From an uncultured Alphaproteobacteria bacterium (GTDB lineage Bacteria; Pseudomonadota; Alphaproteobacteria; Rhizobiales; Stappiaceae): a stretch of 64,000 bases of DNA. Below are positions 53,001 to 60,243 of the stretch, in pieces (positions within the stretch are counted from its first letter, which is position 1; each line of letters begins with the position of its first letter). Where the stretch lies: the NCBI GenBank assembly GCA_963698365.1, contig CAVOQM010000015.1, forward strand, positions 9,586 to 73,585, in the 5' to 3' direction. The notes below the pieces were generated by a model. That model had not been told where the DNA came from, did no database searches, and worked only from the letters and a program-made list of their open reading frames with translations. The position numbers were made by a program, and so were the translations under genes.

Positions 53001-53225
53001 CTCCCTCGGGGAGAGGGTTAGGGCGAGGCGGCGTCCCCTCTCCCTCGGGGAAGGGCCCAGCGTGAGGCGGCGTTCCTTTTCCCTCAGAGAGAGACCCAAG
53101 ACGAGGCGGAATCCCCTCTCCTTCAGGGAGAGGATTAGGGCGCGGCGGCGTCCCTTGTCCCTCAGGGAGAGACCCAGCGTGAGGCAGAGTCCCCTCTCCC
53201 TCAGGGAGAGGGTTAGGGTGAGGGG
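53001..53225. repeat. Six-unit tandem array with exact 39-bp period of boxC/REP-like palindromes
   Basis: Units start at 53001, 53040, 53079, 53118, 53157, 53196; consensus ctccctcagggagagg(g)ttagggYgagg plus linker cggcgtcccct. Confidence 0.9.
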
Positions 53226-53253
53226 CAATAATCCGGCAACGAGCGGAATTCCC

Positions 53254-56768: not shown

Positions 56769-57272
56769 TCAAAGATACCCGATCGCCCGGCCGCAACCGA
56801 TCACGGTCAGCCAGATGACGGCGGAAAAGAACCCCGCCCAGCGGAAGCGCGAGATTGTGCCTCTGGAATCCACCTGCGCCAAGAGTCGCCACGCCGGCAC
56901 GATGCGCAGCGAGAGCGCGTTAAGAATGCCGAGCGCGACCAGCACCAACTTTGCCTGCATCACGGGCATGGCAAGGTATTCGCCCGCCTTGACGGAGATC
57001 ATCAGCACGCCGGTCGCCATCGCCAGCAAAAGCCCGAGCATCGACATGGGCACCAGCACCCGCTTCAACTCGGAAAGCGGCACCGCTTTCCAAAAGCCCA
57101 TGAGACGCAGATCCAGCGGCAGGATCGCGCCGAACAGCATGGCGATCCCGACCACATGGCCGAAATTCACCAGTGGATAGAGCCAGGGCTCACGGCGCAT
57201 CAGGAGCGCGGCCTCCGAGGCTTGCAGATAGCGGGCCACCGTGTCGATGTCGAAAAAGCTGCTTAAATCCAA
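56769..57272 (-). CDS. Four-TM membrane protein (DUF2214/DUF6644-like)
   Basis: YP..N..HVVG, DLRLMG, TG..M, K...V, W..V...GR.IGY. Confidence 0.7.
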   Translation of the reverse strand: MDLSSFFDIDTVARYLQASEAALLMRREPWLYPLVNFGHVVGIAMLFGAILPLDLRLMGFWKAVPLSELKRVLVPMSMLGLLLAMATGVLMISVKAGEYLAMPVMQAKLVLVALGILNALSLRIVPAWRLLAQVDSRGTISRFRWAGFFSAVIWLTVIGCGRAIGYL

Positions 57273-57278
57273 GAAACG

Positions 57279-57680
57279 TCAGCCCGATCTATTGGGATAC
57301 ATATCGTAGACTACACCTTCGACGGTGATTCTCTCCGCTTTCATCACTTTATCCGAAGCGTTTTTCGACCGGTGGCCCGAGGCGAAAACTTCCTGCCCTT
57401 CCCGCAACGTACCTTCCTTCAAGCCGGCACTGCGCATTCGCGACGGCGGCCCCATTTCCACTTTCCAGAGTTCACCCTCCACATCCACATCGAGCAGGCC
57501 ATGCGGCGGACCGATGTAGATGGTTTTGATCAATCCGGTCAGTTCGAATTGCCCGTCCTCCGCCCAGCGCCAGCCGTGATGGGCAAGGGCCGGCGCGGCC
57601 ACGAGCGAACAACCGGCGAAAAGCAGGAAGCTTCTGCGGTTGATGGCGGCAATTTTCGGTATCGGCTTTTGCCGGGTCAT
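57279..57680 (-). CDS. DUF6152-like exported protein with Tat-type signal
   Basis: NRRSFLL...ALA|HHGW, PH, W.VEMG motifs. Confidence 0.7.
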   Translation of the reverse strand: MTRQKPIPKIAAINRRSFLLFAGCSLVAAPALAHHGWRWAEDGQFELTGLIKTIYIGPPHGLLDVDVEGELWKVEMGPPSRMRSAGLKEGTLREGQEVFASGHRSKNASDKVMKAERITVEGVVYDMYPNRSG

Positions 57681-58019
57681 ATCCGGTCTCCTCGTCGCTA
57701 TCTGAAAGCGCAATAGATGGGGCGATCCTGCCTGTTGGCCAGCGGCGGGCCTGAAAACCCCGCTCTCCAGGCTTGGGCTCTTCAAATTTGGACTCGGGCG
57801 TCATCCCGGCCCGCATGCGCGTAAGCCGCATCGCGAGAGCCGGGAACCATCACGCGCTTGACGGTTGACTTGGCGCGGCTTTTTCGTCATGACGTTTGCA
57901 ATCGATTTTTTGTCGGATATCGGAACTTCATGGCCACGCGGCAAGGTGACATCGCCAGCCTTTTTGCAACTGCGCCCTGCGCGGTAGCGATGACGCGCGC
58001 GCGTCAGGGGACAGTTGCC

Positions 58020-58076
58020 ATGGACGATACCCGCATGACCACCCGCAAGACCAAAACTACCAAAACCACCGCCTGA
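58020..58076 (+). CDS. Putative asd leader peptide MDDTRMTTRKTKTTKTTA (alternative start 58035)
   Basis: After the second Met, 7 Thr and 3 Lys in 12 codons; aGGGG SD-like site at 58006; stop 110 nt before asd ATG. Confidence 0.75.
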   Translation: MDDTRMTTRKTKTTKTTA

Positions 58077-58177
58077 CGGTGCCTCTCGTCCCGCGCTCCC
58101 CCGGGTCACGAGGGGAGCGCCGAGGGCCACGGTCGCCATGTGCGCCCGGACGGCTCGCGGGGGGCGGAAAAAGAGGA
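58067..58177 (+). promoter_or_regulatory. Putative attenuator RNA structure upstream of asd
   Basis: Hairpin gcgctcccc/ggggagcgc (58093-58120); cctct (58082-86) complementary to asd SD agagg (58172-76). Confidence 0.55.
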
Positions 58178-58186
58178 ACTATCACG

Positions 58187-59222
58187 ATGGGTTACAAGGT
58201 CGCAGTCGTTGGCGCCACGGGCAATGTGGGCCGCGAAATGCTCGATATTCTGGACGAACGCGGGTTTCCCGCCGATCAGGTGGTGGCGATTGCCTCGCGC
58301 CGGTCGCAGGGCGTTGAAGTGTCCTTCGGCGACAGGACACTGAAGTGCCAGGCGCTTGAGAATTTCGATTTTTCCGACGTCGATATCTGCCTGATGTCGG
58401 CCGGCGGCACAGTTTCCAAGGAATGGTCGCCGAAGATCGCAGCACAAGGTTGCGTCGTCATCGACAATTCCTCCGCCTGGCGCTACGACGCCGACGTGCC
58501 GCTGATCGTGCCGGAAGTGAATGCCGACGCCATTACCGGCTTCAGCCAAGAAGAACATCATCGCCAATCCGAACTGCTCGACCGCCCAGCTCGTCGTGGC
58601 GTTGAAGCCGCTGCATGAAGCCGCCACCATCAAGCGCATCGTCGTTTCCACCTATCAGTCGGTTTCCGGCGCCGGCAAGGACGCGATGGACGAGCTTTTC
58701 AACCAGACGCGGGCGATTTTCGTCAACGATCCGGTCGAGGCGAAGAGCTTCACCAAGCGCATCGCCTATAACGTCATTCCCCATATCGATGAATTCATGG
58801 AGGACGGCTACACCAAGGAAGAATGGAAGGTGCTGGCCGAAACCAAGAAGATGCTCGACCCGAAGATCAAGGTCACCTGCACCGCCGTTCGCGTGCCGGT
58901 CTTCATCGGCCACGCCGAGAGCGTCAATATCGAGTTCGAAAAGCCGATTACTGCGGACGAAGCCCGCTCGATCCTGCGCGAGGCGCCGGGCTGTCTCGTC
59001 ATCGACAAGCAGGAAGACGGCGGCTACGTCACCCCGTTTGAATGCGCGGGCGAGGATGCGACCTTCATTTCCCGAATTCGCGAGGATGCGACGGTTGAAA
59101 ACGGCCTGAATATCTGGGTCGTCTCCGACAATCTGCGCAAGGGTGCAGCACTCAACACCGTGCAGATCGCCGAGGTTCTCATCAACCGCAAGCTGATCCA
59201 GCCGAAGCGGAAAGCCGCCTGA
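58187..59222 (+). CDS. asd: Aspartate-semialdehyde dehydrogenase; apparent +1 frameshift near 58546
   Basis: VVGATGNVG, IDNSSAWR, VPEVN then IIANPNCST, TYQSVSGAG, DNLRKGAA. Confidence 0.96.
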
Positions 59223-59349: not shown

Positions 59350-60243
59350 ATGTTTGTCTATGAATCCGCAGCCCTTGCCGCTGCCGCCTTCTGGGCGCTG
59401 ACCGGCCTCATCTCCGCCGGGCCGTCGCAATATCTGGGCGCCATCGCTTTCAACCAGGCGCGGATGGTCATGGTCTTCGTCGGCCTCAGCCTCTATGTGG
59501 CGCTGACCAGTGGCTGGAGTTCCATCACGCCGGAACTTGCCCTTCCCATCCTGCTTTCCGGCTTTATCGGCATATTCCTTGGCGATACGGCGCTTTTCCT
59601 GACGCTCAACCGCTTGGGCCCACGCCGCACGGCGATCCTGTTTTCCATGAACGCGCCGATCTCCACCCTGCTCGGCTGGCTGATTTTGGGCGAGATTCTC
59701 TCCGCCCGCGCCACGCTTGGCATCGCCATCACGCTGACAGGCGTCGTGCTCGCCATCACCTTCGGCAAGCGCAAATCGCAACTGCATCATTGGGAAAGCA
59801 TCAAGGGCCCCTTGTGGGTCGGCGTGTCGCTCGGCCTTGGGGCAGCCCTTTTCCAGTCGGTCGGTTCCCTCTTTGCCCGCCCGGTCATGGAGGCGGGCGC
59901 GGATCCCGTTGCCGTATCGAGCCTGCGCGTCGGCGTCGCCGCCCTTGGCCTCGTCGTGCTGGCTCGCCTTCCCGTCCAGCGATTTCAGGCCGGCGAACAA
60001 AATGACGCTGAAAATCGCCGGATTGATCGCCCTATCCGGTTTCATCGGCATGGGCGTCGGCATGACGTTGCTGCTTTTCGCGCTATCGGGCGGCGAGGTC
60101 GGCATTGTCGCCACCCTTTCGGCCACCACGCCTGCGCTGCAATTGCCGTTTTGTGGTGGCGGACGAAGGAGGTCCCGGCCCTTGGCGCGTGGATCGGCGC
60201 AGCGCTTGTGGTGGCCGGCAGCGCGCTGATTTTTATGGGTTAA
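59350..60243 (+). CDS. DMT/EamA family transporter; two compensating frameshifts (~59983, ~60150)
   Basis: Hydrophobic EamA repeats; the TM segment LSGFIGMGVGMTLLLFAL...LSATTP lies in the alternative frame. Confidence 0.85.
   Translation: MFVYESAALAAAAFWALTGLISAGPSQYLGAIAFNQARMVMVFVGLSLYVALTSGWSSITPELALPILLSGFIGIFLGDTALFLTLNRLGPRRTAILFSMNAPISTLLGWLILGEILSARATLGIAITLTGVVLAITFGKRKSQLHHWESIKGPLWVGVSLGLGAALFQSVGSLFARPVMEAGADPVAVSSLRVGVAALGLVVLARLPVQRFQAGEQNDAENRRIDRPIRFHRHGRRHDVAAFRAIGRRGRHCRHPFGHHACAAIAVLWWRTKEVPALGAWIGAALVVAGSALIFMG

What the first reader, a model, noticed from the sequence alone, without database searches (positions are those of the whole stretch)
58006..58189. Thr/Lys(/Met)-rich leader peptide and attenuator-like RNA upstream of asd
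Seen: a tiny ORF MDDTRMTTRKTKTTKTTA* (58020-58076; or MTTRKTKTTKTTA from 58035) ends 110 nt before asd. Ten of its last 12 codons are Thr or Lys, and it also has Met and Asp codons. It is followed by a hairpin across its stop codon (caccg/cggtg), a GC-rich hairpin (58093-58120) with no U-tract, and a cctct segment (58082-86) complementary to the asd SD (agagg, 58172-76). The leader itself is C/A-rich and G-poor. Known: Asd makes aspartate semialdehyde, the branch point to Lys, Thr and Met; classical leaders (thrL: Thr/Ile; ilvL) sense tRNA charging by ribosome stalling, whereas Lys is normally sensed by riboswitches. Inference: a ribosome-mediated attenuator integrating Thr and Lys (possibly Met) supply, acting by SD sequestration or Rho-dependent termination rather than an intrinsic terminator. 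I do not recall such a leader described for asd, but could not check the literature.
Basis: partly seen in the sequence, partly recalled or inferred. Interest (0 to 1): 0.85.

Follow-up and report, generated by a model that had tools for sequence, protein, structure and literature searches.

The report
Terminator-free Thr/Lys leader switch for asd
A short reading frame ending in threonine and lysine codons, followed by an RNA predicted to flip between two folds, sits in front of the asd gene in many Rhizobium-order bacteria and likely raises production of this shared amino-acid pathway enzyme when threonine or lysine runs short; the short frame was already flagged once in Sinorhizobium meliloti, while its wide spread and the predicted switch appear undescribed.

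Summary
The feature is real. The uORF is probably longer than reported: 48 codons from ATG 57930, behind a conserved TTGAC box. A Thr/Lys-ending uORF precedes asd in 36 of 37 family genomes, and with its RNA core in 103 of 161 order genomes. No other long ORF of 1,814 in this genome has a comparable tail. Met/Asp sensing is unsupported (0 of 432 family tail codons). The S. meliloti copy matches SEP5, shown translated and proposed as a leader peptide, but called Sinorhizobium-only (PMC10117765). This scan noted the same element earlier on other DNA (e1-5256287). What I add is a co-varying three-helix switch after the stop, with no U-tract. Hairpin X starts at the stop, and its loop can pair downstream (Y, a pseudoknot); hairpin Z competes with both. 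Masking 6-9 nt after the stop flips X to Z in silico. Best model: a stalled ribosome gives X+Y (ON); a ribosome at the stop gives Z, and the freed anti-SD blocks asd (OFF). SD capture fits this species but only part of the order, so Rho is a serious rival. Regulation is untested. New variant of a known kind.

The parts
57864..57893 (+). Predicted housekeeping-sigma promoter (-35 box TTGAC at 57865; -10 inferred about 18 nt further; start of transcription inferred near 57900)
   Evidence: TTGAC lies 50-260 nt upstream of the uORF stop in 87 of 88 elements. In three elements of family f33 the uORF ATG lies 37-38 nt after it, as for a leaderless uORF. The E. coli-type scan found no promoter here. 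Not mapped experimentally.
57930..58076 (+). Leader uORF, 48 codons (MATRQGDIAS...TTRKTKTTKTTA*); further in-frame ATGs at 57990, 58020, 58035
   Evidence: Translation. Homologous uORFs with a free N-terminus and a fixed T/K tail in 36 of 37 family genomes. The S. meliloti counterpart is reported translated (PMC10117765, passages).
58038..58073 (+). Regulatory codon run: 7 Thr and 3 Lys in the last 12 codons; C-rich, G-poor
   Evidence: Family tails: 253 Thr and 82 Lys of 432 codons; all four Thr codons used; AAA 62 of 82 Lys codons against 5,338 of 18,672 in the genome.
58077..58093 (+). Segment 2: 5' arm of hairpin X; contains the anti-SD (58082-86)
   Evidence: X = 58077-93 with 58102-22, 17 bp, -24.8 kcal/mol. 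Cognate partner better than the median foreign partner in 74 of 87. X starts 1-3 nt after the stop in 61 of 67 elements whose nascent fold holds X.
58094..58102 (+). Segment A2: loop of X; pairs either with B (hairpin Z) or with C (helix Y)
   Evidence: Most conserved RNA core. Z = 58093-103 with 58109-20, -23.4 kcal/mol. Y duplex -15.2 kcal/mol.
58102..58122 (+). Segment B: G-rich 3' arm shared by X and Z (mutually exclusive)
58124..58156 (+). Variable spacer hairpin P3
   Evidence: Predicted; sequence and length vary among homologues.
58159..58166 (+). Segment C: complement of the X loop (helix Y, predicted pseudoknot); in the OFF fold it pairs with segment 2
   Evidence: One Y column is C-G in 34, U-A in 21, U-G in 13 and unpaired in 1 of 69 elements (69 of 88 had both anchors). 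Y ends 15-26 nt before the asd ATG in 67 of 88.
58172..58177 (+). Shine-Dalgarno sequence of asd
   Evidence: Sequence. Paired with 58082-86 in the minimum-energy fold, -58.3 kcal/mol.
58187..59222 (+). asd, aspartate-semialdehyde dehydrogenase; carries a 1-nt insertion near 58545, probably an assembly error
   Evidence: 91-93% identical in two frames to the intact relative L002; alignment 1036 vs 1035 nt; relatives annotated as Asd.

Best explanation
This is a conserved Thr/Lys-ending upstream reading frame followed by a three-helix RNA that likely works as a ribosome-stalling attenuator without an intrinsic terminator, predicted to turn asd on when charged tRNA-Thr or tRNA-Lys is scarce. Shown: the uORF, its conservation in front of asd, the absence of a U-tract, and co-variation of helices X, Y and Z. 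Inferred: (1) In starvation the ribosome stalls in the T/K run and leaves the RNA after the stop free. Hairpin X (segment 2 with B) forms first, and its loop A2 later pairs with C (helix Y, a pseudoknot). That holds the anti-SD away and leaves the asd SD open (ON). (2) When Thr and Lys are plentiful the ribosome reaches the stop, covers the first 7-10 nt of segment 2 and breaks X. A2 pairs with B (hairpin Z). After release, segment 2 pairs with C and the SD, blocking asd initiation (OFF). Rho-dependent polarity on the C-rich leader may follow. The peptide itself is probably inert, since only the tail is conserved.
For: Conservation: 36 of 37 family genomes; 103 of 161 order genomes in 25 of 52 families; 115 of 120 hits of a pattern holding no asd sequence lie directly before asd. 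The RNA core is found in 82 of 106 loci with a T/K tail and 2 of 56 without. Coding signature: four Thr codons used, uORF lengths 10-59 codons, tail fixed at the stop. Helices: cognate beats foreign partner for X in 74, Z in 72 and Y in 68 of 87, against 40-49 of 87 for three control pairs; compensatory columns in X and Y. Switch: X exceeds Z in 70 of 88 nascent RNAs with no base masked after the stop, 25 with 6 masked, 10 with 9 masked. In this species X and Z are nearly equal in energy (-24.8 vs -23.4), and opening the asd start region costs 2.2 kcal/mol in X+Y against 6.2 in Z. In the family, anti-SD CCTCT and SD AGAGG are both present or both absent in 24 of 30. S. meliloti SEP5 is reported translated (PMC10117765).
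Against: No regulation has been measured. The RNA runs found were contigs only and told nothing about ends or levels. SD capture is not general: segment 2:SD shows no cognate advantage (48 of 87); Z closes the start region by more than 1 kcal/mol over X+Y in only 36 of 88, the reverse holds in 9, and outside the family shuffling segment 2 does not lower the closure. In 11 of 88 elements C lies 33-98 nt from the ATG, and in 10 it lies under 15 nt from it. The in-silico switch is partly compositional: 60 of 88 real against 16-43 of 88 in shuffled or swapped controls. In this window's own RNA, Z is slightly favoured even with the ribosome upstream, and OFF (-58.3) beats X+P3+Y (about -55.5 before any pseudoknot penalty), so ON must be set kinetically. 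An 8-nt loop cannot pair fully without opening part of X. Related genomes are not independent. Ribosome footprint lengths are recalled, not measured.
Confidence: 0.5

Rival explanations
1. Same sensor and same switch, but the output is Rho-dependent termination. The C-rich T/K codons plus segment 2 would form a Rho loading site, hidden by the stalled ribosome and by X+Y, and exposed in the Z fold (as recalled for tnaC, mgtL and speFL).
For: No U-tract (5 or more T in 8 nt) downstream of A2 in 79 of 88 elements; the region is 43% C and 19% G on average and among the most C-skewed in the window. rho is present. X, Y and Z are kept in lineages that lack an anti-SD or have C far from the SD.
Against: The C skew follows partly from Thr codons. 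Y ends 15-26 nt before the ATG in 67 of 88, at the edge of the initiation site. Anti-SD and SD co-occur in the family. No 3'-end data.
Confidence: 0.27
2. Opposite polarity: X+Y is the OFF fold, because Y crowds the ribosome-binding site, and Z is ON.
For: In 10 of 88 elements Y ends under 15 nt before the ATG, overlapping the SD in the f33 elements. X+Y costs over 1 kcal/mol more to open than Z in 9 of 88.
Against: A ribosome stalled in the T/K run should not reach X (inference from recalled footprint sizes); only one at the stop would. Amino-acid excess would then switch asd on, which is the wrong sign for a biosynthetic gene.
Confidence: 0.08
3. The uORF senses general translation speed, or acts through re-initiation or its peptide, rather than sensing Thr/Lys supply.
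For: A T/K run could slow ribosomes for other reasons; AAA is strongly preferred. SEP5 is detectable as a tagged protein.
Against: Only Thr and Lys, two end products of the Asd pathway, are enriched. Other A-starting codons (Asn, Ile, Met, Ser, Arg) are not. The N-terminus and length are unconstrained, and 66-198 nt of structured RNA separate the stop from asd.
Confidence: 0.1
4. Chance or neutral sequence, with no regulatory role.
For: The whole leader folds no better than shuffles (z = 0.07). No Rfam match.
Confidence: 0.02

Closest known systems
Sinorhizobium meliloti SEP5 sORF (Hadjeras et al. 2023, PMC10117765; passages read)
   Same: [quoted passage not shown] The uORF in front of annotated asd in S. 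meliloti Ak57 ends KTTAKTTTKTV, six Thr and three Lys, and carries the same RNA core. The identity with SEP5 is inferred from this match; the table with SEP5's coordinates was not visible.
   Different: The paper calls SEP5 conserved only in Sinorhizobium and gives no RNA structure or mechanism in the passages seen. Here the element is found in 25 of 52 families of the order, with a co-varying switch.
Enterobacterial thr operon leader thrL (Rfam RF00506; recalled)
   Same: Run of regulatory codons next to the stop of a short uORF, aspartate-family biosynthetic target, and ribosome position predicted to choose between folds.
   Different: Thr/Lys instead of Thr/Ile; no intrinsic terminator; structures lie wholly after the stop; no Rfam match at E up to 10.
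Actinobacterial leuA LEU element (Rfam Actino leu leader; Seliverstov et al. 2005, PMC1262725; parts 1-2 of 3 read)
   Same: Leader peptide, a pseudoknot with an alternative hairpin, no terminator, and an SD-sequestering stem.
   Different: In the LEU element the Leu codons themselves pair with the SD and that stem is common to both folds; the authors favoured a protein regulator. Here the anti-SD lies after the stop and is shared between X and the SD. Different amino acids, gene and phylum.
Rho-dependent leader-peptide attenuators tnaC, mgtL, speFL (recalled)
   Same: uORF-controlled, no intrinsic terminator, C-rich leader.
   Different: Rho involvement is untested here; there is no conserved arrest peptide as in TnaC or SpeFL.

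Membership tests
Ribosome-mediated amino-acid attenuators (leader-peptide class) | Short uORF with clustered codons for end products of the downstream pathway | tested here: met
   null.
Ribosome-mediated amino-acid attenuators (leader-peptide class) | uORF and gene on one transcript from an upstream promoter | tested here: inconclusive
   Conserved TTGAC box upstream of the uORF in 87 of 88; RNA contigs cannot show a transcript. PMC10117765 places SEP5 in the 5'-UTR.
Ribosome-mediated amino-acid attenuators (leader-peptide class) | uORF is translated | not testable with these tools
   Reported for S. meliloti SEP5; not shown for this genome.
Ribosome-mediated amino-acid attenuators (leader-peptide class) | Mutually exclusive RNA structures within reach of the ribosome | tested here: met
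   X/Z share B and Z/Y share A2; cognate advantage and compensatory pairs; X starts 1-3 nt after the stop in 61 of 67.
Ribosome-mediated amino-acid attenuators (leader-peptide class) | Expression responds to the amino acid through the regulatory codons | not testable with these tools
   Needs reporters.
Classical thrL-type transcription attenuator (RF00506) | Intrinsic terminator hairpin with U-tract | tested here: not met
   None on the + strand; absent in 79 of 88 homologues.
Classical thrL-type transcription attenuator (RF00506) | Match to the Rfam model; Thr/Ile codons | tested here: not met
   No match; Ile 11 of 432 family tail codons.
LEU element of Actinobacteria | Regulatory codons pair with the SD as the base stem | tested here: not met
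   The anti-SD lies after the stop; the codon run is A/C-rich.
LEU element of Actinobacteria | Pseudoknot with an alternative hairpin | tested here: inconclusive
   X and Y both co-vary and cross; that they coexist is not shown.
S. meliloti SEP5-type asd leader | T/K-ending uORF about 110 nt before asd | tested here: met
   110 nt here, 113 nt in S. meliloti Ak57.
S. meliloti SEP5-type asd leader | Same RNA core (segment 2, A2, B, C) | tested here: met
   L292 shows X with up to 0 nt masked after the stop and Z from 3 nt masked; segments listed.
Lysine riboswitch (RF00168) | Match to the covariance model | tested here: not met
   No match in the region or in the 74%-complete genome.

The most novel reading that the evidence does not exclude
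An order-wide class of terminator-free attenuator in which the position of the leader ribosome chooses between a pseudoknot-locked ON fold and a nested OFF fold, reading Thr and Lys charging together at the Asd branch point and so replacing both thrL and the lysine riboswitch in Rhizobiales.
Probability: 0.4. Interest if true: 0.7.

Novelty: new variant of a known kind. Interest (0 to 1): 0.5.

Why it matters
How rhizobia and their relatives tune the aspartate pathway to Lys and Thr supply is poorly known. This genome showed no lysine riboswitch (74% complete) and no T/K leader before aspartate kinase, so asd may be the control point. The element turns a one-paragraph suggestion about S. meliloti SEP5 into a testable, order-wide mechanism with named base pairs. 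Lys-codon sensing by a leader peptide and a pseudoknot-locked ON state would widen the attenuator repertoire. It could also serve as a Thr/Lys biosensor part, and it deserves an Rfam family.

Tried and rejected
Rfam scan of 57000-58400: two chance hits outside the leader. Whole-leader folding z-score: not informative. The E. coli-type promoter scan missed the alphaproteobacterial-type box. RNAalifold on a 75-sequence alignment gave no consensus pair because variable spacers misalign, so model R1 is sequence-only; it found one strong site in the genome, this one, with the rest at E 0.027 or higher. A structural motif scan of the genome passed 7 of 2,212 candidates, and only this one had a biased codon tail. 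Expression: 24 runs were found for a Rhizobium ruizarguesonis locus, all contigs; four were laid and were uninformative. The script crashed part-way; its SD-pairing figures are not used. Met and Asp sensing rejected; a mild Met excess in uORF bodies (85 of 1,883, 4.5% vs 2.4%) may reflect spare start codons and is not excluded as a signal. The stop-spanning hairpin as a conserved element is not supported (53 of 87; 27 of 57 outside the family). A t6A-modification sensor idea was dropped because other A-starting codons are not enriched. The SEP5 coordinates were sought in the paper's supplement, but the stored file is cut and gave no hit. Literature searches with no further description of this element; term look-ups in PMC13285730, PMC12612679, PMC2965389, PMC4833913 and PMC8632094.

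Full report
OBSERVATION. The frame stops at TGA 58074-76, 110 nt before the asd ATG at 58187, and 10 of its last 12 codons are Thr or Lys. The frame is open back to ATG 57930, giving 48 codons. That start, about 65 nt after a TTGAC box at 57865, is the one matched in relatives; the 58020 ATG is missing in the close relative L002. As a null, I scored the best upstream frame of 1,814 long ORFs of this genome: 37 reached 5 or more T/K in the last 12 codons, 7 reached 6, none reached 7. Rfam has no match, and the leader as a whole folds no better than shuffles. asd itself has a 1-nt insertion near 58545. It is the only asd found in this 74%-complete genome, so an assembly error is likely (inference).

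CONSERVATION. All 37 family genomes examined, the own included, were read at asd. Thirty-six have a uORF ending in 8-10 T/K of 12; the exception is G021, a 20-Mb assembly with 6% contamination. For the order I fetched 162 of the 235 genomes that named, favouring higher-scoring Asd hits and family spread, so the sample leans to nearer kin; the asd start was found in 161. Of these, 105 have 5 or more T/K in the tail, and 103 also have the RNA core (L161 and L163 lack it), in 25 of 52 families. An independent strict motif for the RNA core occurs in 82 of 106 loci with a T/K tail (S. meliloti included) and 2 of 56 without. Of these, 115 lie directly before asd, in Rhizobium, Sinorhizobium/Ensifer, Mesorhizobium, Shinella, Neorhizobium, Ochrobactrum/Brucella, Nitratireductor, Aminobacter and Devosia; 5 are chance matches in unrelated taxa. 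One unnamed order genome (L109) has a leader nearly identical to the named Rhizobium ones, so the order is Hyphomicrobiales/Rhizobiales (inference). Methylobacterium bullatum, Sphingomonas parapaucimobilis and Ruegeria TM1040 lack it. Among 29 top-scoring loci from other orders (27 with the asd start found), 4 have 7 or more T/K. By eye, two share this architecture (L297, L309) and two instead have a hairpin and T-run like a classical terminator (L311, L323). Kin are not independent, so these counts show spread, not significance.

WHAT IS SENSED. In the 36 family members, which were not chosen by composition, the 432 tail codons are 253 Thr, 82 Lys, 0 Met, 0 Asp and 11 Ile; all four Thr codons occur. 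uORF length runs from 10 to 59 codons with no conserved N-terminus. Selection therefore acts on the codons near the stop, not on a peptide. Lys is AAA in 62 of 82 cases against 29% in the genome. Met is 1.0% of tails over 88 elements and 4.5% of uORF bodies, against 2.4% in the proteome, so Met sensing is unsupported but not excluded. TTGAC lies upstream of the stop in 87 of 88 elements (about 15% expected by my arithmetic for a 210-nt stretch), and three f33 uORFs begin 37-38 nt after it, as leaderless frames would.

RNA ANATOMY. After the stop come segment 2 (58077-93), A2 (58094-102), B (58102-22), a variable hairpin P3, segment C (58159-66) and the SD (58172-77). Hairpin X pairs segment 2 with B (17 bp, -24.8 kcal/mol) and leaves A2 as its loop. 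Z pairs A2 with B (-23.4). Y pairs A2 with C (8 bp, -15.2). W pairs segment 2 with C and the SD. X and Z share B; Z and Y share A2; X and Y cross, so together they would be a pseudoknot. In a swap test on 87 distinct elements (one unsegmentable row, one short row, two without the core and duplicates dropped; about six mis-segmented rows left in), the cognate partner beat the median partner from other families in 74 for X, 72 for Z and 68 for Y. Three control pairs gave 49, 48 and 40; W gave 45 and 48; the stop-spanning hairpin gave 53. With sequence-only anchors, a Y column reads C-G 34, U-A 21, U-G 13 and mismatch 1 of 69. Two X columns in the family are paired in 48 of 60 cells against 37 in shuffles, with U-A/A-U and G-C/A-U exchanges (relatedness not corrected). 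A U-tract is absent in 79 of 88.

MECHANISM. Folding the nascent RNA up to the end of B, X exceeds Z in 70 of 88 elements with no base after the stop masked, 54 with 3 masked, 25 with 6 and 10 with 9. From recalled footprint sizes, a ribosome stalled on the last Thr or Lys covers at most about 4 nt past the stop, and one at the stop about 7-10. The last T/K codon lies 0-2 codons from the stop in 82 of 88, and X starts 1-3 nt after the stop in 61 of 67. A clean X-to-Z flip is seen in 60 of 88 real elements and 16-43 of 88 controls, so composition explains part of it. I infer stalled = X+Y = ON and stop reached = Z = OFF. The output is less certain. In this species, opening the asd start region costs 2.2 kcal/mol in X+Y and 6.2 in Z (3.1 with segment 2 shuffled). 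Over the family the means are 3.0 and 4.9; outside it 4.3 and 4.9, with no segment-2 effect. Anti-SD and SD are concordant in 24 of 30 family members. Y ends 15-26 nt before the ATG in 67 of 88, just outside the SD, but under 15 nt in 10 and 33-98 nt in 11. So SD capture is my choice for this species, while a Rho-based output remains plausible and could be the ancestral one: the leader is C-rich and rho is present. Against the model, Z is slightly favoured over X in this species' nascent RNA, and the OFF fold (-58.3) is more stable than X+P3+Y (about -55.5 before a pseudoknot penalty). ON would have to be set during transcription. No expression data could test any of this.

PRIOR KNOWLEDGE. 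Hadjeras et al. [quoted passage not shown] They suggest it is a leader peptide and call it conserved only in Sinorhizobium. The uORF before annotated asd in S. meliloti Ak57 has exactly that tail. The actinobacterial LEU element (PMC1262725, parts 1-2 of 3 read) also combines a leader peptide, a pseudoknot and an alternative hairpin, but there the Leu codons pair with the SD. thrL, tnaC, mgtL and speFL are recalled comparisons. Ten searches of the held library found no other description; subscription papers, among them Vitreschak 2004 and Lopatovskaya 2010 (recalled), were not visible and could hold one. The scan's own notes list this element on other DNA (e1-5256287) and several terminator-type asd leaders elsewhere; these are unchecked leads, not support. 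Searches of them by place and for a pseudoknot reading returned nothing.

VERDICT. A real, widely conserved leader-peptide element: a new variant of ribosome-mediated attenuation. That it is a Thr/Lys-sensing attenuator of asd: about 0.85. The specific X+Y/Z switch with SD output: 0.5. Interest 0.5.

Noticed in passing
window 58187-59222: asd has a 1-nt insertion near 58545 relative to L002, splitting the frame; probably an assembly error since it is the only asd found.
   Followed up: partly
window 59350-60243: The transporter-like gene after asd appears to change frame near its 3' end (overlapping ORFs 59350-60243 and 59837-60229), a further hint of indel errors in this assembly.
   Followed up: no
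window about 53060-53250; G000 C18 48250-53270, C5 268840-269250, C3 80840-81300: Clusters of short palindromic repeats with pyrimidine/G-rich arms resemble the A2:B hairpin (weak R1 hits; repeated 'SLRERG' frames). Whether the switch was recruited from such a repeat is untested.
   Followed up: no
L311 and L323 (other orders), upstream of asd: T/K-rich uORFs followed by a hairpin and T-run that look like classical intrinsic terminators: the same sensor with a different output.
   Followed up: partly
L297 and L309 (other orders), upstream of asd: The same segment 2 / A2 / B / C architecture outside the order.
   Followed up: partly
L025, L027, L028, L032-L034, L126, upstream of asd: Extra hairpins of 30-80 nt are inserted between segment C and the SD while X, Y and Z are kept; natural test cases for Rho against SD output.
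   Followed up: partly
L073, L085, L086, L089, L139 (family f33): Minimal versions: 10-16 codon, probably leaderless uORFs; in four the stop lies only 66-69 nt before asd and C overlaps the SD.
   Followed up: partly
L163 and L161, upstream of asd: T/K-rich tails (9 and 5 of 12) without the A2/C core; L163 has a different GC-rich structure.
   Followed up: no
L332 (G000 C12), upstream of aspartate kinase: No T/K-rich uORF in the 400 nt upstream, and no lysine riboswitch in the genome.
   Followed up: yes
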